Below are positions 41,931 through 59,317 of a DNA stretch of 64,000 bases, in pieces. This stretch comes from an uncultured Bacilli bacterium. GTDB lineage: Bacteria > Bacillota_I > Bacilli_A > RF39 > UBA660. Under the pieces are notes generated by a model that was not told the origin of the DNA, did not search any database, and saw only the letters and a list, made by a program, of their open reading frames with translations. The stretch covers positions 19,549 through 83,548 of the forward strand of contig CANRPB010000001.1 in NCBI GenBank assembly GCA_947632415.1. Reading direction: 5' to 3'. Position 1 is the first letter of the stretch. Every line of letters starts with the position of its first letter. The position numbers and the translations under genes were made by a program.

Positions 41931-42008
41931 TTCCGCTTGATGTATGATTGCTTAGCATAATTCCCTCTAAAGGAATAGGACCTGGAGCAGAACCGGGAGC
42001 GGGGACCA
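41931..42008 (+). tRNA. Candidate amber-suppressor tRNA (anticodon CTA) with a non-canonical T-loop and an encoded CCA
   Basis: TTCCGCT TG ATGT ATGATTGCTTA GCAT A ATTCC CTCTAAA GGAAT AGGA CCTGG AGCAGAA CCGGG AGCGGGG A CCA. All four stems pair (some G-U). U33 and A37 flank CTA. The T-loop lacks TTC. Confidence 0.45.
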
Positions 42009-42517: not shown

Positions 42518-45500
42518 ATGGTAGACTTTAATAAGTAGATTAAACAAAGCGATAAATTTCGTTAGGCAGCCCTATAGTTCATAACTACAGGGCATTATTG
42601 TACGTACCCAGCTGGTTCATCAGAATACTTCAAATTCTGGGACTAGGAAAAGGATAGAAGTATTAATGGTTATACTGCTGATGATGGTGACTACATCACA
42701 GGGTATAACTATTTTTATTTAAATTATTGTCCTATTCAACGACTGGTATATACTAAGAATGAGAAGACAGGTAAGATAAAAAAGAGTCGTGAAGTATCAT
42801 TCCCTGATTTTTGGGATTATGACTATTACTTCTTTTAGGCTTTATAGGATGCAGAAGATTAGGGTAAACATATGTGCGCATTGAAAAGCCGTAGAAAGGG
42901 GTACTCGTACAAAAATGCCGCAATGGCTTGTCGTAATTATTATCTTATACCCAATAGTAAAACATATATTTATGCGTCTAATAAGCAGTATTTAACTGAA
43001 GATGGTATCCTTACTAAAGCATGGGACTATATGAACTTTATAGATAAGAATACTGCTTGGGGTAAGAAACGCTCGGTGAACACACAGATGCGTAAAAGAG
43101 CTGGTTTCTTTACTAGGGATGAGTATGGTAATGAAGTTGAATTAGGTTATAAGTCTGAAATAATTGGTGTTACATTGAAAGACAACCCAGACGTTGTTCG
43201 TGGTAAAGCCGGTAAGCTAATCATATTTGAGGAAGCTGGGTCGTTTAGCGAACTGGGTGCTGCTTGGCAAATAGCGAGACCATCAGTAGAGCAGGATGGT
43301 GTGGCATTCGGTACTATGATAGCGTTCGGGACAGGTGGCGATGATAACAGCCACTTCTTTACTTTGAAAGATATGTTCTATCACCCTGAAGGTTATAATT
43401 GCGTAGGGTTTAAGAATATATGGGACGAATCTGTTACCACTGAAGAGTGTGGGTTCTTTATACCGTAGTACACTAACATGGACTTCCGTGATACTGATGG
43501 TAACAGGATGTTCATGGATGACGATGGTAACACACTGCGTAAACGGTCCTTAGAGTATGTACTAGAAGAAAGACGTAAAGTAATAGAGAACGCGACTAGT
43601 AATGAAACTATTGACCGTTATGTGGCAGAGCACTGTTTAACCCCTAGTGAGGCATGTCTGGAGTTTAATGGGAATATCTTCCCAAAGAAGGAATTACAAG
43701 AGCAATTAAGTTTACTTAGGACTAACACTAGATTATAGAACCATAAATAGGTCGGTGATTTAGTATGGGAACCTACCGGGGAACTTAAATGGATTATTAA
43801 GAAAACAGGAGATATTAATCATTACCCATTACGATAGAATGAGGACCCAACTGGTTCTATAGTTATATGGGAACACCCAAATAAGGAAGCTAGCTTAGGT
43901 CTATACATTGCTGGTATCGACTCTTATGACTATGACGAGTCTAGTACTACTTCATTAGGTTCATGCTTCATTTATAAACGCATTCAAGGTATTGAAGCTT
44001 ACTCTGATATAATAGTAGCTGAATACACTGGTAGACCCAAGACTGCTGAGGATTTCTATGAGAATGTTAGAAAGTTGTTGATATACTATAATGCTAGGGC
44101 AATGTATGAGAACCAGAACAAAGGTATATTTGCTTACTTTACTAATAAGCATTGTGACTACTTACTTGCTGATACCCCAGATATAATTAGTGACATTATA
44201 AAGGATTCCAAAGTAAATCGTAAGAAAGGCTGTCATATGACCAAGTAGATTAAACAGTGGGGTCAAGGGTTGATTAAAGACTGGTTAAACGATGCTAATG
44301 CGGACGGTAAAAAGAATTTATATAACGTTATGTCAGAACCACTATTAGAGGAATTGATCTCATATAATGATGTAGGTAATTTCGATAGATGTTTATCGCG
44401 AGGAACGCTAATTACAACTAACAGAGGTGATATTCCAATTGAAGAGGTTAGCACTACCGATTTCGTGTTGACTGATAAAGGTAATTATAAGCAAGTCATA
44501 CTTACTGACAGGCATATACATTCGGGTAAAATGATCACGTTAGCTTATTCTGGAGATTATTAGAAGCTGATTTGTACAGACAATCATCCGATATTGGTAA
44601 AATACACCGATAAGCTATCACATAAATTTAGAAATGTCGAAACACTAGAAGAAACATTTTTAAGAGCAGATAGTTTAAATTACAAATATTAGTTTGCGCT
44701 ATTACCGAAGAGACATATAGAGGACAAGCCAAGAACGATAAATGATCGAATACTGTATGTACTTGGGTGGATAATGGGTGACGGATATTGCCATCCGAAT
44801 AGTAATGAGGTAAAGATAACGTATCAGTTAAACCAATTGAAATGCGCTGAGCAATGCAAATAGATAATTGAAGAATTTGATGGTTCTGTTCCGTGCAAGA
44901 TAATGAGAGACAAAACCAAGAATTGTTATCGATTAGTCGTATATTCTAAGAAATTGCATACTTTAGCTATGCAGTTCGGATGTGTTCCGAATAACAAAAA
45001 AATAAATTATACGGTATACAACAATCACAAAGATTTAATTCCGTTCATCTTAGGCTTACTAGAAGCAGATGGGCATTAGAAATATAATACCGCATATGAC
45101 GGCCACGCAAGAAACGCAATCGAGATAGCTACCATATACGAGGAGTTACTAAGACAATGCAGGTAGATATTATTGGATAACAATATATATTCAACTATCC
45201 GTGAAGTTAAAGCAAGAAACGGCAGACGTCAGGTAAATCTTTAGATAAGCGGTGAATACGTTAGTAAATTATTATCTTATTATACGCCAAACGATGGAAC
45301 CGCAACATGCCCAATATTTTCATATAAGTTTAAACAAGTCTATTGCAATCATACGAAGTCAATTGTCTTATAGGATAATCGAGGTTTTTGGGTTCCTATT
45401 AAGCTATTAGAAAGTAACGAAGCATCTGAAACTGTATATAATATTGTAGTGCAAGATGACCATACTTACGTTGCTAACGGTATTACTACCCATAATTGTA

Positions 45501-45661: not shown

Positions 45662-45702
45662 CTATGAATAATATAAGTCAATTCCCATTATAGAAACTAC
45701 CG

Positions 45703-48180
45703 ATGAGTAAGAAGACTAAAGCTTGGCGCGAAGCAAATGTCGACTATATATCAGGTAAAAGTATGGGTGGTTCTAGAAATGGGAATAATAGAACATTTAA
45801 AGAAGAAATGAAGACATACTACGATCTTTATAATGGCATCTACAATGAAAAAGATCTAAAGTATGTTACTAACCCATTTAAGTAGTCAGATGGGTTCCCT
45901 GCTACAGCGTAGGATTATAATGTCATCAAACCTAAAATAGATTTATTGTTAGGTGAAGAAACTAAACGACCATTTAACTTTAAAGTAGGTCGAACTAGTG
46001 ATATAGCTGCAGGTGAAATGTAGGATAAGGCAAAGCAATTGCTGATTGACTACGTACAAGCAAATATAATGAGTAAATTGGGTCCTGAAGAACAACAGAG
46101 ATACCAAGAAGCATTGTAGTCAGGTGAAGTAATGACACCTGAACAAATATAGAAATACATGAGTAAGGACTATAAAGATATTGCTGAAATAACTGCATAT
46201 CATAGCCTTAATTACTTAAAAAGTAAGTTGAACATTACTCATGAATTCTTTAAGGGCTGGAAAGATGCACTGATTGGTGGCGAAGAAATCTATTACGTTG
46301 GTATACGTAATGGTGACCCTTGTTTAGAAAGAATTAACCCATTATATTTTGACTACGACACTGATACTTCAGACATCGAGTTCATTCATGAGGCATAGTG
46401 GTGTGTCTATGAGATGAGGTTGTCAGTAACAGAAATATACGACAGATACTACGATAAATTAAGTGAAAAGCAGTTAAACCAATTGCTTGACATGATGGAT
46501 GACGTTAGCAAAGGTATGATGAACCCAGAAGTACGTAAAACGTCATTGGATTACGCGCATATAAAAGCTAACGTCATAAATGGTTTCAATGCAAATCCGT
46601 TCGAATCAACTAATAACATTAGTGTATGGCATTGCTGTTGGAAGTCTTTTAAAAAGATAGGGTTTATAACCATACTTGACCCCGAAACTGGTGAACCTGA
46701 AGAATATACAGTAGATGAAACGTATAAAGTAGTTGGTACTGAATTGAATGTTGAATGGAAATGGATAGTTGAAGTATGGGAAGGATATAGAGCTGGTGAA
46801 GACCTTTACTTTGGTATAGAACCTATTGAATATCAATACGTATCAGCTGACAACCCTAACGCTTAGAGATTACCATACACTGGTGTAGTATATAATAACA
46901 CTAACAGTAAACCTAGGAGTTTAGTAAGTATAATGAAGCCACTATAGTACATGTATATCATACTCTGGTATAGGCTTGAATTAGCAATGGCTAGGGATAA
47001 AGGTAAAGTACTTAATATGGATATTACGTAGATACCAAAATCAATGGGTATCGATGTATCTAAGTGGATGCATTACTTATCAGCACTAGGTGTTAACCTA
47101 CTTAACCCATACGAGTCGGAGTGGGATATACCAGGTAGGGATGGCAGTCACGCAGCAACATTCAACCAAATAGCATCAGTAGACCTTAGTATGGCTAACG
47201 TAATTGACCAGTACATCAAGCTAATGGATAAGATTGAAGACATGTTATCTGAAGTTACCGGTGTTACTAGGCAAAGGGAAGGTGCTATATCTACTAGCGA
47301 GTTAGTTGGTAATGTTGAGAGAGCTGTAATACAGTCTGCTCATATCACTGAGCCTTGGTTCTGGACCCATAGTCAAATTAAACGTGAGTGTTTGACTATG
47401 CTATTGAATACAGCTCGATGGGCTTGGAAAGACAATAAAACTGCTTTATACTATACGTTAGATGATGCTACTAGAGCGTTTATAACTCTATCAGATTAGC
47501 TACTATATGAAGACTTCGACATCTTTGTAGAAGATACTACTAAGAATCAACAGAACATCGAAGCATTACGTAACTTAATGCAACCTGCTATGCAGAATGG
47601 TGCTAGCTTACTCGATATAGCTGAAATCATCACTATGGACAATGTCAGTATGATTAAACAGCGTCTAGAAGAGATTGAGCAGAAACGTATGGAACAGCAG
47701 CAATAGATGGAACAGGCTCAGGCTGAACGTGAACAACAAGCTATCCAAATGCAGAATGAGGTTAAGGAAGAGGAACTGATGATTAAGGAAGCTGAAATGG
47801 ATCTTAAGAAATATGAGATAGATCAGAATAATGCTACCAAGATTGCAGTTGCTGAACTAAGTGCTTACCGTGGTACTGAAGATATGGATCAGAATCGGAA
47901 TGGAATACCGGATGTCATGGAAATTGGTAAGCAAGCCTTAGAACAGCAGAAGATAGATTCTGATAGAGCTGGTAAACAGTTAGAACTCAACAATAAGCGT
48001 AGAGAGATAGAGATGAAACGTGATATTGAGTAGAAGAAGATACAGCTTGAAAAGGACAGAATGAAGCATGAGACTGAGTTACAACGTATGTCAGATAAAG
48101 CTGCAATGGAAAGGGAGAAGTTAAAGGCACGCACCGCACTCAAGAATCATGTCGTAGGTGAAGCTAAAAAGAGTAAGTAA
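45703..48180 (+). CDS. Portal protein (TAG read as sense)
   Basis: 5 track ORFs in frame 1. The gap 45885-46159, read in full, has only TAG. About 825 codons directly after TerL. TAA stop at 48178-48180. Confidence 0.7.
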
Positions 48181-48182
48181 TT

Positions 48183-48566
48183 ATGGAAAAGATCAAAAAG
48201 ATATTAAACTATTTGTGGCAATTACCGTAGAATTTACTTGGTTTAGCCACATTCAAATGTTACCCAGGATATACGATTAATGTTGGTGATAATGCAATAG
48301 CTAAAATATCTAGTAAAATGCATGGCGGTATCACATTGGGTAAGTATATCGTAATTAGTCATGCGAATTTAATAAAGCATGAATATGGGCATGCTGTTTA
48401 GAGTAAATACTTAGGTCCACTATACTTGTTAGTGATTGGTTTGCCTTCTATCTGTCATGCTTCAGTTCATAATTATTTGTGCAAGAACCCTGATTACTAT
48501 CACTTCTACACGGAGAAATGGGCTAACCAACTGAGCGATAAGTACTATAAGCAATGTGAGTCATGA
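48183..48566 (+). CDS. Small hydrophobic HExxH protein (two in-frame TAG)
   Basis: Absent from the ORF track because of fragmentation. HEYGH at 48378-48392. TGA at 48564-48566. Confidence 0.5.
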
Positions 48567-50734
48567 CACCTGAAGAGAGACAAGCATTCAAATAGAGAAT
48601 GAAAGACATAAAAGCCTACCGGGAGTAGAATCCCGGTAAGGGCTACTGGGATTGGAAGGAGTACGATAATGGTGGTACTGTTGGTGAATTAGTTGATGCG
48701 ATATATGCAACTAATCCAAAAGAAGAATTCCTAGGTGAGCCAGCACATCACTATGATTTTACTATATCTGAAGAAGAAGCAAATAGGCTTGGTTACTTTC
48801 CTGATAAGCGTGGTCATAGAGATGATAGAGTAAAGAAAGAATCCCATCCCTCACATCCCTCTAGAGGTACTTGGTCTGGTGACTATTTCTCACTTACAGA
48901 CAAAGGTATGGAAGATCCTAATTATACTTTATTTGGGTTAAATGATGGTGGCTAGGATCCGCAGGCAATACTAAGATATAAAGATAGTTATGTTCTACCT
49001 GAGATGACTATTACTCCTAAAGATAGCTACATATATAATTCTTATGATAATATCAAATTACATCTTCCTAAGAAATACGCTACTGGTGGTAAGACTGAGG
49101 ATGATAAAGTTTTATGGAATTGGGATAGCCAACTACCTGAAGTAATTGTGTTGGGTAAGAAAAAGGAATACAGCGATGAACGAACAGACCATCCTATAAA
49201 GAAACCAAAGGAATATCCTATCTATCGCCGTGACAATGGATATATTACATAGGGTAAAAGTGATGATTCTTGGAAGAAATGGGATAAAGACGGAGACGGA
49301 ACTCTTAGTCCTAAAGAGCGTTGGGAGCGATAGAAGTCAGAACGTAGATCAGAGGATTGGCGTAATCTTGGGAAAGGCATCAATAGAACATTTGGCACAG
49401 CTGCGGCAGCAGCCAGCACATTATATGGTGGTGGTTGGGCAGCAACCAGATCAATCAAGGGTAATAGAGCTAGTACATTAGGTGGAAAACTTGCTAAACA
49501 CGTATTATCTTCAAATGCCGTAGATACTGGATTTGATGCGGCGAATATGTTATTTGATCCGACTGATTCGTCCAATATTCTAGACTTATCAACAGGTTTA
49601 TTATTATCACGTTATAAGGATTTTTCCAAACCTGTAAGACAAATAGGCGAGTTAATAAATGCTGGAGTCAACACGTACAACACTGTGGACAATTATGAGT
49701 CTGGTGGTGAAACCGGAGATGATGATGAAGAACGTAAATAGAGATTCTATGAAGCTACAGGTAGAAATAAATACGGTGTACCTATAGAATAGGGTTTAAA
49801 ACCAGTATTTGATTTAGAGGATGCTGCTAATCTTACTCCAGCTGGAGATGTGTTATCTGCCAAAGATACTTATCAGGCAGTAAAAGATAGAGATTGGTTA
49901 GGTGCTGGATTAGCTGCTTTGGGAATGGTACCTATAGTCCCTAATATCGCACGTTATGTGAAACACGGTAAATTAAAACCACATGCCGTACCTACAGTTA
50001 ATCCAAATAAGGATCAAGCATTAATTGATGCGCAGTTAAAGATGCTACAAGAACTTGCTGAAAAGAAAGCAAAAATATCTAACGAATAGTATGGTGTTGT
50101 TGAACGAATGATGGATGACCCGGCATATTTACGTAGAGCTGAAGAAGTATAGAAATAGTTTGGTGATGATTATTCTATGCCGTATGCAGATGCATTTATA
50201 TCTTACAATGGAGACCCAGCTTCGTTACCACAGGTGGCCTTAAGCGATGATTATAGATCTTTTGGTAATATGGAGAGATTGTCTGATGGTAGTTTCTTGT
50301 ATCACCGTAGTCGTGTAATAGATCAGCCGTATAACGCAGAACACGAAGTTGGGCATTTCGTAGATATGCTGAAAGCTGGTGGTGGCGATGCCGATAAAGG
50401 TAACAACATGTTCAAAGAAATGAGCAAGGACTTAAAAGAAGGAATTGATAGACACGATAGATATTTCATGATGCCAACTGAATAGAAATCCCACATGAAT
50501 CAATTACGTGAATGGATGTTCTAGAATAATATGATACCAACTAGAGATACTAAAGTTGACGTAAATACTTTAAAGAAAGCATTGAAGGCAGTTGACGAAG
50601 TATCAGGAATGGAAGGTGTGGTACGAGCTAGTAAATAGTTCGGAGATATGAAATTATACAGAAAATGGTTTAATAGCATACCTTTAGTAGATGCTACTAC
50701 TAAAGTGGATGAATATGCTAAATAGTATGTTTAA
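48563..50734 (+). CDS. Virion or cargo-type protein with an EF-hand-like loop and an HExxH motif (TAG read as sense)
   Basis: ATG 48563 overlaps the upstream TGA. Track ORFs 49004.., 49547.., 49850.., 50177.. share frame 2. DKDGDGTLSPKE at 49283-49318. HEVGH at 50342-50356. TAA at 50732-50734. Confidence 0.65.
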
Positions 50735-51918: not shown

Positions 51919-51945
51919 TAACAAATACAAAATAACTGTTTAATA

Positions 51946-52944
51946 ATGGATAACGGAATTTTAAACAATCTTTAGCTGTACCGTGGAAAATGGTTCAGCG
52001 ATTTGATCGACACCAACAAGATCAGCGCTGCTTCACAACAGACTCCGTACCAAGTTGCAACAGTTTTGTCCTATGTTTTCGGTACTAAAGATGGTGGCTA
52101 TAGTACTTCTCTGGACATGCTTACTGGTGGTCTTGGTAACGTTATGACGATAGATCAGCCGAGCTGGGAATGGAATGTGCTCGTTGATCAGGACAGAGCA
52201 ATCACAATTAGAGATGCAAAATGGCAGGGCAAAAATGTAAGCAGTACCACATTAGCAGGTATTGCTAATACGCCGATTCAACTATGGCTTGAAGACGATT
52301 ACTTTGGACCTACTGCTGTGTTGGAACTGGATGATAAAGAATATCAAGTACGTGTATCTGGTGCACCGTATCAAGATGGAAACCTGTATGTATATACAGT
52401 ATTCATTGCTGATGGTAACCCTACGTCTTATATCCCTGGTGACCTGTTGCAGCCTGGTTGTCAAGTATCACGTCTTGCTTCTGCTGTAGAAGAATACAGT
52501 GAAGAGGGTGACATCCTGAACTACAACACTCATTTCAAGATGAGAAATTACCTGACTACTATTCGTATCAACTACGATATTACTGGTTCTGCTTACTCTA
52601 CGGTAATGGCAATTGCTATGCAGGATCCTAAAACAGGTAAGAAATCTTATCTCTGGGCTGATTACCAAGAATGGGTTGCACTGCGTGAATGGTACAAGCG
52701 AGTAGAGAGAATGTTGGTTTACATGAAAACTAACGTTAACAAAGATGGTAGCTGTAACCTCAAAGGTTCCAATGGCAGACCCGTTTTTATTGGGAGCGGT
52801 TTGTTGGAGCAGATTGCACCGTCTAATAAAAGATATTATACTCATTTGACTGCAGAAATACTTGAAGACTTCTTGTTCGATCTGTCTTATAACGTACTCG
52901 GTACGAATGAAAGAAAATTCGTTGGTTTTACTGGTGAAATGGGT
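51946..52944 (+). CDS. Major capsid protein, exon 1 (single in-frame TAG at codon 10)
   Basis: ATG 51946 is in frame with track ORF 52003... Only one TAG (51973-51975) in the whole gene. The exon end is inferred. Confidence 0.6.
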
Positions 52945-53935
52945 TAATTGATAGCTCCTTGTAACAGTGATGTTACAAGCAAATCTACTTAATTGCTGGA
53001 AAATCGTTAATAGATTTAAAAACATAGATTAACATTTAAATCATAGTTCATGGAAACTAATCGACAATCAGCAGCTAAAACACTGCACAGACCTGTAAAT
53101 GGATTTGAATATAGGTATTCCATCACAACTGATGGTGAAGTTTATGATAATCATAGAAAAATATATCTAAAACCGTTTGAAAATAGAGTTAACCTAATCG
53201 GGATTAATGATAAAGTCTATTCAATTAGAATCGAAAAGTTACTTGCAAGTACTTTTAAAGACATTAATCTGGTAGACTATGAAGAAGTAAAAGATCATCC
53301 TGGTTACTACATAAATAGATGCGGTTCACTCTACAACAGTAAGACAAAAAGATTTATAAAGACAACTGTTAAGAACGGTTACTTAAGGTATAACGTGGAT
53401 TGGAAAGTTAGACAAGTTCATAGAGTGTTAGCAATCCAATTCATACAAAATCCAATGAATTATAATTCAATCGACCATGTAGATTGCAATAAGCTAAACA
53501 ATAGTTTAGATAATCTAGAATGGGTAGATATAGAAGAAAATAAAAAGAGAGCTTACGATAATGGATTAACTAGAGTAGTAAAATCAATGGTTACATTCAT
53601 TAAAGATGAAGAAAGTTTCTCAATATTGGGTTTAGAAAATGCTAGTAAAATATTTGGGATAAAGAAATCAACCTTGTGTACAATGATAAAGCGATACGGT
53701 AATAAAGATATGGTAATCCCAAGTGGTTCTATGAAAGGTTACAAAATCATAACTAACAAGTGCAAATGTAAAGTTCAACGACTATCCGAAATGGAGTAGA
53801 GTTCAAGTGAACTCGAAATGGTAGATTACTCAATAGAGTAAAAGATATAGTCTAATCACTTAGGAAACTAAGTGGGGATTCTAGAACGATCACAGAATCC
53901 CAACTCAAACTAACGATTTGAGTTAAATGTAAATG
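52945..53935 (+). mobile_element. Group I-like intron carrying an HNH endonuclease gene. Boundaries are inferred.
   Basis: It splits the capsid ORF. Joining T52944 to T53936 gives in-frame ...TGEMG|LREFDRV.... G53935 could be the terminal G. Hairpins include CACTTAG GAAA CTAAGTG, GGGATTCT..AGAATCCC and CTTGTAAC..GTTACAAG. Long-range AATCTAC/GTAGATT pairing. I could not identify P1/IGS. Confidence 0.5.
53050..53841 (+). CDS. HNH homing endonuclease (NUMOD4/HNH_3-like)
   Basis: YSITTDGEVYD, then IDHVDCNKLNNSLDNLEWVDIEENKK. No internal TAG. The first stop is TAG 53797-53799. If that is read through, the ORF ends at TAA 53839-53841. Confidence 0.75.
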
Positions 53936-54406
53936 TTAAGAGAGTTCGATCGTGTATTGAAGGAAAAGATGGTTAACATGAACCTGATTGATACTGTATT
54001 TGTAACAGGTTCTGGTGAAAACCTGACTTTCGGTGGACAGTTCAAGACCTATAAGATGACCAATGGCATTGAACTTACTTTGAAGTATTTCCCGTTGTAT
54101 GATGATCTTACCTATAATCGTAAGTTGCATCCGGTTACTTTGAAACCGTTGGAATCCTACCGTATTACGTTCCTTGATCTGGGTAGACGTGATGGCGAAG
54201 CTAACGTGGTTAAAGTAGTTCGTAAAGATCGTGAATTTGTAACATGGACTACGGGTGGTTCTGTACTGCCGAGTGGTTATGCTCATTCAACGAACACGCT
54301 CAGAAGTAACGGTAAGGATGGGTACACGGTTTACTTTTTGGCAGAATGCGGGATAATGTTGAGGGATCCGCGTAGTTCTGGAGAGCTCATAATGGAAAGT
54401 GAGTAA
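53936..54406 (+). CDS. Major capsid protein, exon 2
   Basis: 157-codon ORF with no TAG. TAA stop. It is preceded in frame by TAA, so it cannot be a simple continuation. Confidence 0.55.
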   Translation, partial: LREFDRVLKEKMVNMNLIDTVFVTGSGENLTFGGQFKTYKMTNGIELTLKYFPLYDDLTYNRKLHPVTLKPLESYRITFLDLGRRDGEANVVKVVRKDREFVTWTTGGSVLPSGYAHSTNTLRSNGKDGYTVYFLAECGIMLRDPRSSGELIMESE

Positions 54407-55182: not shown

Positions 55183-55935
55183 ATGGAAGTAATCGTTAGA
55201 ATAATTAAAGCAAACCCTTGGTCAGGGATTACTAAATGGCCTACTTGTTTTGACTATGTAGGTTCATACTGGACTAGATCAGGTAACTTATACACTGGTT
55301 TAACTAAAGAAGATTCAACTAGACTTGAATAGGAATTAGGTTACCCTGAAGGTCAATTATCACCACACAGTTCGTTTTGGGATACATTTGCAGTTAAGGT
55401 TGGTAAGAAAGACGTAATACTCAATACTGACAAACCTGAAGATGAACTAAAATATCTATTCTTAAAGAATCACAAAAGAGTAGCCAACGGTTTAAATAAA
55501 ATTACACCAGGTACTGACTACGTACTGATTAATCAGGATAGTGAAGCTGAAGAAAAGAATAGGATTAACAAAGTTAAACGTGAAGCTTACAGAGAAATGG
55601 ATAAGATGTCCATTGAAGAAATGCGTAAGTGTTTACGTCTATATGGCATTAGATCTAATGAGATGTCTAATGAACTCATTGAATCTAAACTGTCTGAATT
55701 GATAGAGCAAGACCCGAATAAGTATTTAGAGAAATGGGTTAATAATGCTGACAAAGAAATTAACTACATGATCGAAGAAGCATTGGCTAAGAATATACTT
55801 AGAAAGAATAGAACTAACTATTACTTTGGTACTGATTTAATTGGCAATGGTCTTGATGATGTAATTGCATACTTTAAGAATAAAGCTAATTCAGAGATTA
55901 AAGCTACTATTCTAAATGAAATAAAGTCTAAATAA
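55183..55935 (+). CDS. Hypothetical structural-module protein (one in-frame TAG)
   Basis: ATG 55183 is in frame with track ORF 55597... The whole gap was read and contains a single TAG. Confidence 0.6.
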
Positions 55936-56725: not shown

Positions 56726-57508
56726 ATGGACGCTAGATCAATGCAAATTTCATTTGAAAACCGTTTATAGCAAATTAGTCCTAATTTGGCATTATCGGGT
56801 AAGCTGAGTTCAGATATTGTATTTGAATTCTTGAATGCAGCTATGTTAAGGTTCTGTAAGGACACGTATACGTTAGAAGATCAAACTGAAGATGGTTCTA
56901 GGGCATTTAGGGTAACTAATGATGCATTAAAAGGTTTATCTACTAGAGTAGTATTACCAGTTAATAAACCATCTGAAGATGAAAGTACATTGAGTAATTA
57001 TACAGTAAGGGTTAAGTTGCCTGATAACTTTATGTACTACATTAGATCAGCATCTAAAGTGACTCAATCATATAAATCAAAAGATCCAACTGAACCGTTT
57101 GTTACACCGAATAAAGTCATTAAAGCTGAACAAATAGGTTTAATACTAACTACATACTACAATAAACCAATACTGGTTAATCCATATGCAGTATTGACTG
57201 AATCACATATAGTAGCAGATAACTTAGAAGATCCTATAGTTAAAGACCCGGTAGATAGTAATTTGTACTTAAACATAGTGCATGACGCATATACTACTAT
57301 AACTGATGTAGATCTATATTACTATCGTAGGCCCCGTAAGTTTGATGTGATAGGTGTAGATGGTGAAACTATACTAGATCATTGTGAATTAGCACCGAAT
57401 GTTCATATGCAAATAGTTGAGCTAGCAATTCAAATGTATTTAGATGATTCTAGATCAAAGGTAGCTGAACAAGATGCTCCACAACAGCAACGAGTAAATA
57501 AAGAATAA
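56726..57508 (+). CDS. Connector/adaptor-like protein, paralog 2
   Basis: ATG 56726 is in frame with 56786..57508. Its C-terminal HMQIVELAIQMYLDDS resembles the neighbours. Confidence 0.55.
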
Positions 57509-58330: not shown

Positions 58331-59317
58331 ATGATTACTAGAGTAAAAAGCGTACTTGTTGGTAACGAATTCAAGGCTACAGCTACATCTGCTGATGATC
58401 TGTCTATTGGTGACATCATCATGGTAGATCAGGATAGCAATATAATCGATGGTGAAAAGAAAGCTGCTGAAGCTAGTTCTATCCAGATTGGTGTAGTTAC
58501 CGGTAAGACTAAAGTAGCTGATACTGCAGGTGCATTGCAAGATATGAATACACTGGTTTGGTCAAATAGAATTGACAAATCAGGTCACCCAAGTGCAGTA
58601 ATTGGTTCTTATGAAGCACCTGTGGCAGAAAAGATTGAATTCGATTTTACAAATGCAACTATAACAGCTGGTCATAGATATGTATTAAGAATTGTCTATA
58701 AAGACATTACTGAAGCACCTGGTCAGTTTACTCACACATACGAAGTTGTTAGTGGTGATGACGAATCAGAAAATTTAGTTACAGCACTGGCTAACAAGGT
58801 TAATAAACATAAGAATCGTAGGGTTGAAGCTAAAGCTGAAACTAAAAAACTGATTTTGACTGCATTGGAAAAGGACGATAATGAAGGTGTTGATTCAATC
58901 AATGAGTACAGTGTAGTAACTATGGATGCTACTATTTATGAAACAGTACCTGGTGCATTACTTTCTAATCAGCCTAAAGCAGTTGAAAGTCTTACTAAGA
59001 CTAAAACAACTGGTAAACCGGGTAAAGGTTACTGGAAGCAAGTTAGAGATGCTGAGAGACGTAACATGGGTTACAAAGGTCATGTGTTTAGTGGTGCATA
59101 TCCTGCTGTAGAACAGGATCTGTTGGTTGATCCTAGTGCTGAGTACGATTATATCGTAATTGAAAATGATAACCTGTACTTGAGCAATGATAACCAGTAT
59201 ATCAAGTCTACTCCGTTGACTACTGAACTTTATATCAAAAAAGGTCAGAAAACAGAACTTGAAAAATGCGTTAAAGCATTCGTTACTGGTCAGGCTCCTG
59301 CATCTGAAGCAGTATAA
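58331..59317 (+). CDS. Abundant-type virion structural protein (no TAG). Exact role unknown.
   Basis: 328-codon ORF without any in-frame TAG, followed by a strong terminator. Confidence 0.65.
   Translation: MITRVKSVLVGNEFKATATSADDLSIGDIIMVDQDSNIIDGEKKAAEASSIQIGVVTGKTKVADTAGALQDMNTLVWSNRIDKSGHPSAVIGSYEAPVAEKIEFDFTNATITAGHRYVLRIVYKDITEAPGQFTHTYEVVSGDDESENLVTALANKVNKHKNRRVEAKAETKKLILTALEKDDNEGVDSINEYSVVTMDATIYETVPGALLSNQPKAVESLTKTKTTGKPGKGYWKQVRDAERRNMGYKGHVFSGAYPAVEQDLLVDPSAEYDYIVIENDNLYLSNDNQYIKSTPLTTELYIKKGQKTELEKCVKAFVTGQAPASEAV

What the first reader, a model, noticed from the sequence alone, without database searches (positions are those of the whole stretch)
51973..51975. Single TAG at codon 10 of an otherwise TAG-free major capsid gene
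The capsid ORF has no ATG after the TAG for many codons, but an in-frame ATG at 51946 gives MDNGILNNL-TAG-LYRGKWFSDLIDTNK. The remaining ~470 codons (both exons) contain no TAG, unlike neighbouring genes, which use it often. A lone early TAG would make capsid synthesis strictly dependent on the suppressor while sparing the bulk of this highly expressed mRNA from suppression inefficiency. The alternative is initiation at TTG 52003.
Basis: partly seen in the sequence, partly recalled or inferred. Interest (0 to 1): 0.6.

Follow-up and report, generated by a model that had tools for sequence, protein, structure and literature searches.

The report
Lone early amber codon in capsid gene
In this gut crAss-like phage, which reads the stop codon TAG as glutamine in its late genes, the major capsid gene starts at the upstream ATG and has one TAG, at codon 10; relatives show that capsid genes of this phage family keep TAG only near the start or lose it altogether, which looks more like cost avoidance than a required switch.

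Summary
[quoted passage not shown] The other 488 codons, across both exons, contain no TAG.

The start is ATG 51946, not TTG 52003. All 120 homologues begin MDNxILNNL[V/Q/T]LY. In 11 TAG10 sequences from relatives plus the window, codons 1-9 vary only synonymously, apart from family-variable codon 4. Close relatives have Gln at position 10, so TAG10 is read as Gln.

The window is a TAG-recoded Suoliviridae (Loutivirinae-like) phage with a tRNA(CUA) ahead of the late operon.

TAG scarcity in the MCP exceeds chance: 1 of 16 Gln sites against 0.37 in other late genes (P=0.007). On an MCP tree, the only TAGs carried by more than one representative are at codons 10 and 32. Later TAGs occur only in single sequences.

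At least 41 recoded contigs and four named genera have TAG-free MCPs, and TAG32 turns over no more slowly than other Gln codons. Four genomes show a within-gene 5'-to-3' decline in TAG use.

Best reading: failed suppression costs more in abundant proteins and at later codons, so only an early TAG survives. An adaptive gate is possible but unproven.

The scan noted single or early TAGs in virion genes of other phages before.

The parts
51946..52944 (+). MCP exon 1 (333 codons), true start ATG 51946
   Evidence: Pfam PF23898 Crass_capsid: residues 3-333 match profile 1-333, 480.8 bits. All 120 homologues share the N-terminus. The junction with exon 2 was defined against the intronless L081.
51973..51975 (+). 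Lone in-frame TAG, codon 10 of the MCP, read as Gln
   Evidence: Sequence. Other relatives have sense CAA/CAG, or V/T codons, at this position. The closest relatives L081 and L082 also have TAG there. Codons 1-9 upstream are conserved, with synonymous changes, in the 11 TAG10 sequences compared.
52003..52005 (+). TTG proposed as an alternative start; actually internal Leu20
   Evidence: Leu20 is invariant in a 38-sequence alignment. The 19 residues before it are conserved in every homologue.
52945..53935 (+). Group I intron interrupting the MCP, carrying an HNH endonuclease ORF (53050-53799, or to 53841 if its TAG is read through)
   Evidence: Rfam RF00028 matches both halves, E 9e-10 and 7.8e-5, below the gathering score. 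HNH families in PHROGs and Pfam. Intronless homologues join ...GEMG directly to (M/L)REFDR.
53936..54406 (+). MCP exon 2 (156 codons plus TAA), no TAG
   Evidence: Pfam PF23898 profile 335-495. tblastn to P0001 residues 338-493, 93.6% identity.
41931..42008 (+). Candidate amber-suppressor tRNA(CUA) at the head of the late operon
   Evidence: ARAGORN. Not detected by Rfam RF00005 even at E<=1. ARAGORN finds a tRNA(CUA) at the syntenic place in cr53_1, an IMG/VR relative and cr6_1.
58331..59317 (+). Second TAG-free late gene, probably the auxiliary capsid protein
   Evidence: 0 TAG in 10 Gln sites, and 0-1 TAG in 33 recoded relatives. The AF2 model matches crAss001 vertex chains 7qoi_Be and 7qoh_e, E 3e-7. 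It sits a few genes downstream of the MCP, as gp36 does in crAss001.

Best explanation
The window is a TAG-to-Gln recoded crAss-like phage (Suoliviridae, close to Blohavirus and Buchavirus). Its MCP mRNA is translated from ATG 51946. UAG at codon 10 is decoded as glutamine by the phage amber-suppressor tRNA, in competition with host release factor 1.

The MCP and the probable auxiliary capsid protein are the two most abundant shell proteins, about nine copies each per asymmetric unit in crAss001. They are under strong purifying selection against TAG, because every failed suppression event wastes ribosome time and produces a truncated capsid protein.

That cost grows with the distance of the TAG from the start. 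In the MCP, TAG therefore persists only in the first 35 or so codons (codon 10 here, codon 32 in the sister clade), where an aborted product is a harmless 9-31-residue peptide. The lone TAG is thus mainly a tolerated, cheap-position synonymous codon.

As a consequence, capsid synthesis in this lineage depends on the suppressor, but that dependence is probably a by-product rather than the selected function.

Shown: the start site, TAG = Gln, depletion of TAG in the gene body, the 5' bias, and TAG-free MCPs in recoded relatives. Inferred: the cost mechanism and the competition with RF1.
For: Start and decoding:
- Pfam profile matched from position 1.
- 120 of 120 homologues share MDNxILNNLxLY.
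- Only synonymous variation at codons 3, 6, 7, 8 and 9 upstream of TAG10 in the 11 TAG10 sequences compared.
- TAG10 aligns with CAA/CAG, and TAG32 with a nearly invariant Gln.
- crAss001 gp32 (PDB 7QOF) aligns from residue 9.

Recoding context:
- 170 in-frame TAGs in late genes and almost none in the early minus-strand genes.
- tRNA(CUA) found in the window and at the syntenic place in three relatives.

Selection against TAG in abundant shell proteins:
- MCP 1 of 16 Gln sites, P=0.007. Gene 58331-59317 0 of 10, P=0.011.
- The same holds in relatives: MCP 0-3 TAGs, gene 58331-59317 0-1.
- The 58331-59317 product is only 52-57% identical among relatives yet stays TAG-free, so slow evolution is not the cause.
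- MCP Gln sites flipped CAA/CAG 1-8 times in the derived clade, so the mutational opportunity existed.

Position effect:
- On a 64-representative MCP tree, TAGs carried by more than one representative occur only at codons 10 and 32. TAGs at 71, 138, 162, 230, 245, 372 and 400 are each carried by single representative sequences (138 by two unrelated ones).
- Ten parsimony changes fall on 3.25 early Gln-site equivalents against 8 on 8.23 later ones, P=0.014.
- In four recoded genomes, TAG is over-represented among Gln sites of the first 100 codons of the same gene: 209 observed, 171.6 expected, P<0.0003. For the first 50 codons: 122 against 101, P=0.0003.
Against: - Two daughter lineages of a TAG10+TAG32 ancestor each kept exactly one early TAG. 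The window clade kept TAG10 and reverted codon 32 to CAG. The V10 clade kept TAG32. Neither lost both. This hints at retention by selection.
- TAG10 and TAG32 each arose more than once (L216/L084 in a distant background).
- TerL keeps TAG at codon 16 in four genomes from three subfamilies.
- In the window, 8 of 17 late genes have a TAG within 16-20 codons of the start, against about 5 expected (P=0.002-0.004).
- The cost gradient is inferred. No suppression efficiency was measured.
- N-terminal regions may simply evolve faster in other genes, which could produce part of the gradient.
Confidence: 0.55

Rival explanations
1. Adaptive fail-fast gate or throttle. One TAG near the 5' end is positively selected, so that MCP translation aborts after about 10-30 codons until the phage suppressor tRNA is available. 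It could also act as a slow-codon ramp in the most heavily translated mRNA. The rest of the gene stays TAG-free for efficiency.
For: - A lone early TAG is the commonest state in the derived clade: 82 recoded contigs with TAG32 alone, and 5 full-length lineages with TAG10 alone.
- There is an apparent hand-over from TAG32, through TAG10+TAG32, to TAG10, with neither daughter clade losing both.
- Recurrent origins of TAG10 and TAG32.
- TerL TAG16 is conserved in four genomes from three subfamilies.
- Window-level excess of genes with a TAG in the first 16-20 codons.
- TAG10 is followed by C in 12 of 12 loci, whereas codon 11 is TTA/TTG in 30 of 56 non-TAG10 representatives.
- The published model of late-gene gating by recoding (bioRxiv 10.1101/2021.08.26.457843).
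Against: - At least 41 recoded contigs and four recoded named genera have no TAG in the MCP.
- TAG32 shows 1 change against 1-8 at other Gln sites, so conservation is not in excess.
- The gene-level early-TAG test does not replicate in four genomes when genes with at least 2 TAGs are used (P=0.2-0.9).
- Columns that are TAG in every compared genome lie at TerL 16, portal 456, and codons 641 and 137 of two other genes, so they are not N-terminal as a rule.
- TerL, portal and tail genes already carry many TAGs, so virion production is suppressor-dependent without the MCP.
- The suppressor gene sits at the head of the same late block.
Confidence: 0.25
2. Neutral history. The MCP has few TAGs only because it evolves slowly and recoding is recent. 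The single TAG sits at codon 10 by chance and is shared by descent.
For: - Genes with in-frame TAG are reported to be the faster-evolving ones (bioRxiv 10.1101/2023.08.07.552389).
- The MCP is 86-90% identical among relatives.
- The turnover of TAG32 is not distinguishable from that of other Gln codons.
Against: - Synonymous CAA/CAG flips are frequent at MCP Gln sites, and CAG, the precursor of TAG, makes up 0.87-0.92 of codons at sites 245, 293 and 372 (0.19-0.57 at other later sites). Even so, no TAG beyond codon 36 is carried by more than one representative.
- The fast-evolving probable auxiliary capsid gene is also TAG-free.
- Early-against-late events give P=0.014.
- The within-gene gradient is seen in four genomes.
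Confidence: 0.15
3. The TAG is a genuine stop of a short upstream ORF, and the MCP initiates downstream at TTG 52003 (or CTG 51976), giving a protein without the first 10-19 residues.
For: - TTG can serve as a bacterial start.
- Table-11 ORF calling gives 52003-52947.
Against: - Residues 1-19 are conserved in all 120 homologues, and in standard-code relatives where position 10 is CAA/CAG.
- Codons 1-9 show only synonymous change in TAG10 lineages.
- The Pfam profile starts at residue 3.
- RefSeq annotates relatives' MCPs from the same ATG.
- There is no significant RNA structure near the TAG (z=-1.48).
Confidence: 0.03

Closest known systems
TAG-to-Gln ('genetic code 15') recoding of late genes in crAss-like phages (Yutin et al. 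2021, PMC7886860; Borges et al., bioRxiv 10.1101/2021.08.26.457843; Peters et al. 2022, PMC9523058)
   Same: In-frame TAG only in late structural genes. TAG aligns with Gln. A phage tRNA(CUA) is present. The MCP carries a group I intron and TerL an intein, as described for the Delta group (Suoliviridae). Gating of late genes by the suppressor is the published hypothesis.
   Different: The papers I could search do not mention three points. The MCP and the probable auxiliary capsid protein are almost TAG-free. The surviving MCP TAGs sit in the first 35 or so codons. TAG use declines from 5' to 3' within genes. The word 'capsid' does not occur in the Borges preprint.
Blohavirus americanus cr53_1 and Buchavirus cr113_1 / cr56_1 (Suoliviridae, Loutivirinae; NC_055889, NC_055896, NC_055890)
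   Same: MCP 86.6-88.2% identical to P0001, the window's closest homologue. Same gene order. Recoded late genes. The MCP is annotated from the same ATG. One lone early TAG in the MCP.
   Different: Their lone TAG is at codon 32 and codon 10 is Val. The window has TAG at codon 10 and CAG at codon 32. Their MCPs lack the intron.
Position-dependent cost of nonsense errors (stated from my own knowledge: codon quality is expected to increase along highly expressed genes because late aborts waste more)
   Same: It predicts what is seen: the costly codon is tolerated at the 5' end, avoided later, and avoided most strongly in the most abundant proteins.
   Different: That model concerns rare processivity errors at sense codons. 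Here the 'error' is RF1 winning at a reassigned stop codon. No efficiency was measured.
Programmed stop-codon readthrough stimulated by downstream RNA structure
   Same: An in-frame stop is decoded as an amino acid.
   Different: There is no significant structure after the TAG (z=-1.48). TAG is read genome-wide in late genes through a tRNA, not at one special site.

Membership tests
Crassvirales major capsid protein (Pfam PF23898 Crass_capsid, HK97 fold) | Full-length match to the family profile above the curated cut-off | tested here: met
   Exon 1 scores 480.8 bits (profile 1-333) and exon 2 scores 218.3 bits (profile 335-495); the cut-off is 27.
Crassvirales major capsid protein (Pfam PF23898 Crass_capsid, HK97 fold) | Sequence similarity to the solved crAss001 MCP gp32 | tested here: met
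   P0001, 90% identical to the window's exon 1, matches 7QOF chain A at E 2.1e-33: residues 10-488 against 9-497.
TAG-to-Gln recoded late genes with a phage suppressor tRNA (code 15 type) | Many in-frame TAGs in conserved late genes and few or none in early genes | tested here: met
   170 TAGs in 17 late genes. Most minus-strand early genes have none.
TAG-to-Gln recoded late genes with a phage suppressor tRNA (code 15 type) | TAG positions align with Gln in homologues | tested here: met
   Codon 10 is CAA/CAG in at least 118 viral contigs. Codon 32 is Gln in at least 90% of 38 aligned MCPs.
TAG-to-Gln recoded late genes with a phage suppressor tRNA (code 15 type) | A tRNA with anticodon CUA encoded by the phage | tested here: inconclusive
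   ARAGORN calls a 78-nt tRNA(CUA) with a non-canonical T-loop. The Rfam tRNA model does not find it. Relatives carry canonical tRNA(CUA) genes at the syntenic place.
TAG-to-Gln recoded late genes with a phage suppressor tRNA (code 15 type) | Gln shown at TAG positions in the protein | not testable with these tools
   Shown by metaproteomics for two other crAss-like phages (PMC9523058), not for this phage.
Regulatory amber gate on a late gene (Borges model applied to the MCP) | No functional product without suppression | tested here: met
   The TAG lies upstream of all conserved sequence except residues 1-9. The next in-frame ATG is codon 58. A TTG20 start would remove conserved N-terminal residues. 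That such a product would be non-functional is inferred.
Regulatory amber gate on a late gene (Borges model applied to the MCP) | The gate is conserved among recoded relatives | tested here: not met
   41 recoded contigs and the recoded phages cr6_1, cr7_1, cr131_1 and Bohxovirus have TAG-free MCPs. TAG32 turnover is not slower than at other Gln sites.
Regulatory amber gate on a late gene (Borges model applied to the MCP) | The suppressor is expressed later than, or separately from, the gated mRNA | not testable with these tools
   The tRNA gene lies at the head of the late block, 41931-42008.
Group I intron with a homing endonuclease (the part splitting the MCP) | Match to the group I covariance model | tested here: inconclusive
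   RF00028 scores 44.4 and 27.9 bits against a gathering score of 50, with E 9e-10 and 7.8e-5. The match is split by the HNH ORF.
Group I intron with a homing endonuclease (the part splitting the MCP) | Precise, in-frame removal restores the uninterrupted protein seen in intronless relatives | tested here: met
   Joining 52944 to 53936 gives ...FTGEMG-LREFDR, against ...LTGEMG-MREFDR in L081. The last exon-1 base is U and the last intron base is G.

The most novel reading that the evidence does not exclude
A single amber codon in the first 10-32 codons of the capsid gene is a selected minimal 'fail-fast' gate or ramp. It ties synthesis of the most abundant virion protein to the phage's own suppressor tRNA at almost no cost. 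It was handed over from codon 32 to codon 10 in this lineage, and it is one case of a wider habit of late genes to carry an early TAG (TerL codon 16, portal codon 10).
Probability: 0.22. Interest if true: 0.6.

Novelty: new member of a known kind. Interest (0 to 1): 0.38.

Why it matters
The result settles the annotation. The MCP of this phage and its relatives starts at the upstream ATG and must be translated with TAG = Gln. Table-11 callers truncate it at the N-terminus.

It also adds a measurable detail to the picture of stop-codon recoding in gut phages. Reassigned TAG is not used uniformly. It is nearly excluded from the two most abundant shell proteins, it declines along genes, and where it survives in the MCP it sits at the very start.

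This gives a handle on the real cost of competition between suppressor tRNA and RF1. It also offers a simple natural test case for whether recoding regulates late genes or is only tolerated: one codon, at 10 or 32 or absent, in otherwise 80-90% identical capsid genes.

Tried and rejected
1. TTG 52003 start: rejected on N-terminal conservation.

2. Readthrough stimulated by RNA structure in cis: folding 51925-52045 gives z=-1.48, and 17 of 200 shuffles fold as well.

3. Sequencing or assembly error: rejected, because independent assemblies carry TAG10.

4. BLAST of the window's tRNA(CUA) against five relatives found nothing. ARAGORN on the syntenic regions did find tRNA(CUA) genes. So the sequence is divergent, not absent.

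5. Genome-wide 'early TAG in every late gene'. This was significant in the window's 17 late genes (P=0.002-0.004). It did not replicate as a gene-level test in four whole genomes (P=0.2-0.9). Only a broad 5'-to-3' gradient holds. Part of the window signal could come from longest-ORF start calls, although the N-termini of TerL, portal, 48563, the MCP, 56726 and others were confirmed by orthologues.

6. Conserved N-terminal TAG gates: Gln columns that are TAG in every compared genome lie at TerL 16, portal 456, and codons 641 and 137 of two other genes.

7. Excess conservation of TAG32: 1 change against 1-8 at other Gln sites, not significant.

8. phmmer of 58331-59317 and 55183-55935 against the PDB gave nothing. 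Only the fold search linked 58331-59317 to a crAss001 capsid chain.

9. The TAG10 pattern found only 4 further contigs in metagenome contigs and none in genome contigs.

11. The AF2 model of the MCP has low confidence over the first 80 or so residues. The structural role of residues 10 and 32 could not be read from it.

Full report
**What is there**

The window is part of a 98.7-kb contig (C1 of a 119-contig bin). It is a crAss-like phage. Read with TAG = Gln, the plus strand resolves into long late genes, while the minus-strand block 12.3-37.4 kb is almost TAG-free.

- The late genes include TerL with an intein, a portal-size gene, the MCP, ring-protein paralogues, tail fibres and giant RNAP-like proteins.
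- The closest named phages are cr53_1 (Blohavirus americanus) and cr113_1 / cr56_1 (Buchavirus), in Suoliviridae, Loutivirinae. Their MCPs are 86.6-88.2% identical to P0001, the window's closest homologue.
- This matches the Delta group of Yutin et al. (PMC7886860): TAG reassignment in late genes, group I introns in the MCP, and an intein in TerL.

**Checking the observation**

The next in-frame ATG is codon 58.
- The gene is split by a 991-nt group I intron, 52945-53935, which carries an HNH ORF. Rfam RF00028 matches both halves at E 9e-10 and 7.8e-5, below the gathering score.
- The junction is fixed by intronless homologues. Exon 1 ends ...FTGEMG at 52944 and exon 2 starts LREFDR at 53936. 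The MCP is 489 aa.
- It has one TAG and 15 sense Gln codons.
- Other late genes use TAG at 170 of 465 Gln sites. P(<=1 of 16) = 0.007.

Gene 58331-59317 is also TAG-free (0 of 10), and 56726-57508 has 1 TAG in 12.

**Where translation starts, and what the TAG means**

- The Pfam Crass_capsid profile aligns from profile position 1 to residue 3 of the ATG-initiated protein.
- All 120 best homologues begin MDN[NGS]ILNNL[V/Q/T]LY[KR]GK.FSDL. The protein database calls these genes with TAG = Q.
- The 11 TAG10 sequences compared are the window plus ten loci from relatives: L081, L082, L215, L217, L219, L218, L085, L083, L214 and L216. In them, codons 3, 6, 7, 8 and 9 upstream of the TAG vary only synonymously. 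Codon 4 varies G/N/S, as it does across the family. The peptide upstream of the TAG is therefore under purifying selection, so the ribosome starts at the ATG and reads through.
- Position 10 is CAA/CAG in at least 118 other viral contigs, including standard-code relatives. Position 32, where sister lineages have TAG, is a nearly invariant Gln. So TAG = Gln.
- crAss001 gp32 (7QOF) aligns from its residue 9.
- No RNA structure follows the TAG.
- ARAGORN finds a tRNA(CUA) at 41931-42008, just before the late block. Rfam misses it. Canonical tRNA(CUA) genes lie at the syntenic place in cr53_1, an IMG/VR relative and cr6_1. An earlier scan note on this tRNA reached the same view.

**The comparative picture for the MCP**

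I mapped every codon of 183 full-length MCP genes onto P0001 coordinates. Each contig was classed as recoded or standard from TAG density in its flanking long ORFs. I then built a tree of 64 representatives with the TAG codons masked.

- Standard-code relatives form the outgroup.
- The earliest recoded branches have no TAG in the MCP: 41 recoded contigs, plus the named cr6_1 (Bearivirinae), and cr7_1, cr131_1 and Bohxovirus (Oafivirinae).
- A derived clade carries TAG at codon 32. This includes L221, then cr53_1, cr113_1, cr56_1 and 82 IMG/VR contigs.
- Inside that clade, L218 and L085 have TAG10+TAG32.
- The window's own clade (window, L081, L082, L215, L219; 81-90% aa identity) has TAG10 with CAG at codon 32.
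- The large V10 clade has Val at codon 10 and TAG32.
- L216/L084 carry TAG10+TAG32 in a distant background.
- All other MCP TAGs (16, 31, 36, 71, 138, 162, 230, 245, 372, 400) are each carried by single representative sequences, with 138 in two unrelated ones.
- By parsimony, 10 changes fall on 3.25 early Gln-site equivalents and 8 on 8.23 later ones (P=0.014). The later sites are mostly CAG at 245, 293 and 372, the one-step precursor of TAG.
- MCP Gln codons flipped between CAA and CAG 1-8 times per site in the derived clade, so mutational opportunity was ample. TAG32 changed once, which is not exceptional.

**Beyond the MCP**

- The other TAG-free late gene, 58331-59317, has 0-1 TAG in 33 recoded relatives, although it is only 52-57% identical among them.
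- Its AF2 model (pLDDT 70.7) matches chains 7qoi_Be and 7qoh_e of the crAss001 portal-vertex reconstructions at E 3e-7. Lower-case chain names are used for the auxiliary capsid protein gp36 in those entries. In crAss001, gp36 likewise lies a few genes downstream of the MCP. In crAss001 the MCP and gp36 are each present nine times per asymmetric unit (PMC10172136).
- So the two most abundant shell proteins are the two genes that avoid TAG.
- In four recoded genomes (own, cr53_1, cr6_1, cr7_1), I shuffled TAG labels among the Gln sites of each gene. TAG is in excess in the first 100 codons (209 against 171.6, P<0.0003) and the first 50 (122 against 101, P=0.0003). It is only marginally in excess in the first 20 (41 against 34.5, P=0.07).
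- A gene-level test for 'at least one TAG in the first 16-20 codons' was significant in the window's 17 late genes but did not replicate in whole genomes.
- Gln columns that are TAG in every compared genome are not N-terminal in general. TerL codon 16 is a striking exception.

**Interpretation**

The data fit position- and abundance-dependent purifying selection against a codon at which termination competes with decoding.

- In most late genes TAG is nearly neutral, with a share of about 0.37.
- In the MCP and the probable auxiliary protein it is selected against.
- Within genes it is tolerated better near the start. There an abort costs 9-31 codons and leaves no truncated HK97-fold protein.

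But the evidence does not require that it was selected for that purpose. Recoded relatives do without it, and its persistence is not longer than that of neutral Gln codons.

Some hints keep the gate reading alive, at roughly one chance in four:
- the apparent hand-over from codon 32 to codon 10;
- recurrent origins of the early TAGs;
- TerL TAG16;
- C after TAG10 in 12 of 12 loci, where other lineages often have T.

Note also that one TAG lowers full-length yield equally wherever it sits. An early position saves waste, not yield.

**Comparison with what is known**

Late-gene TAG-to-Gln recoding, suppressor tRNAs and the gating hypothesis are published (PMC7886860; bioRxiv 10.1101/2021.08.26.457843; PMC9523058). 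Gene families that prefer TAG have been listed there, and the MCP is not among them.

In the papers I could search, I found no statement that the MCP and auxiliary capsid genes are nearly TAG-free, that MCP TAGs are confined to the 5' end, or that TAG use declines along genes. Earlier notes of this scan recorded single or early TAGs in virion genes of other phages. I did not check those notes.

The finding is a real and correctly read instance of a known system, with a modest new quantitative twist.

**Limits**

- Recoded or standard status was inferred from flanking TAG density.
- The tree comes from one gene, and recombination could blur the order of events.
- Event counts are small.

Noticed in passing
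window 42563-42565 (TerL codon 16): TAG at TerL codon 16 (motif KFR-q-AAL) is kept in all four compared genomes from three subfamilies (own, cr53_1, cr6_1, cr7_1; TerL 50-78% identical). Further TAGs lie at codons 5-7 and 20 in some of them. It is the only N-terminal Gln column that is TAG in every compared genome.
   Followed up: partly
window 58331-59317: This TAG-free 328-aa late gene has no Pfam or PDB sequence hit. Its AF2 model matches crAss001 vertex chains 7qoi_Be and 7qoh_e (E 3e-7), and like gp36 it lies a few genes downstream of the MCP, so it is probably the auxiliary capsid protein. It is much more divergent among relatives (52-57% identity) than the MCP.
   Followed up: partly
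whole late block of the window, plus genomes of cr53_1, cr6_1 and cr7_1: There is a within-gene 5'-to-3' decline of TAG among Gln codons: 209 observed against 171.6 expected in the first 100 codons (P<0.0003). It is strong in the window's genome and in cr6_1, and weak in cr53_1 and cr7_1.
   Followed up: yes
all in-frame TAGs of the window's late genes: The base after an in-frame TAG is enriched for A (72 of 171) and depleted for C (15 of 171) compared with CAA/CAG codons (chi-square P=5e-4). MCP TAG10 is followed by C in all 12 TAG10 loci, whereas codon 11 is TTA/TTG in 30 of 56 non-TAG10 representatives.
   Followed up: partly
window 41931-42008, L234:6664-6738, L235:8759-8836, L236:7505-7578: The window's tRNA(CUA) has a non-canonical T-loop and G-U pairs at the top of the acceptor stem, and the Rfam tRNA model misses it. 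Relatives carry canonical-looking tRNA(CUA) genes at the same place before TerL, but their sequences are too different for BLAST to link them.
   Followed up: partly
L227 (cr55_1), L226, L228, L231 and several IMG/VR loci: The MCP is interrupted at several different places in relatives: after about codon 20 (cr55_1, with an HNH gene between), about 123-125, about 289-291, and 333-337 (the window). Many close relatives have no intron.
   Followed up: no
window 53797-53799: The intron's HNH ORF ends at a TAG (249 aa). If that TAG is read as Gln, the ORF runs 14 codons further to TAA 53839-53841. Whether this TAG is a stop or a sense codon is open.
   Followed up: no
window 45691-45693 (portal-size gene 45664-48180, codon 10) and 48593-48595 (gene 48563-50734, codon 11): The early TAGs in these two late genes are shared with cr53_1 at the aligned positions. 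In cr6_1 and cr7_1 the portal position is a sense Gln codon.
   Followed up: partly
genome G000: The 'genome' holding the window is a 1.39-Mb, 119-contig bin. The phage is contig C1 (98,653 bp) and is probably binned with unrelated bacterial contigs.
   Followed up: no
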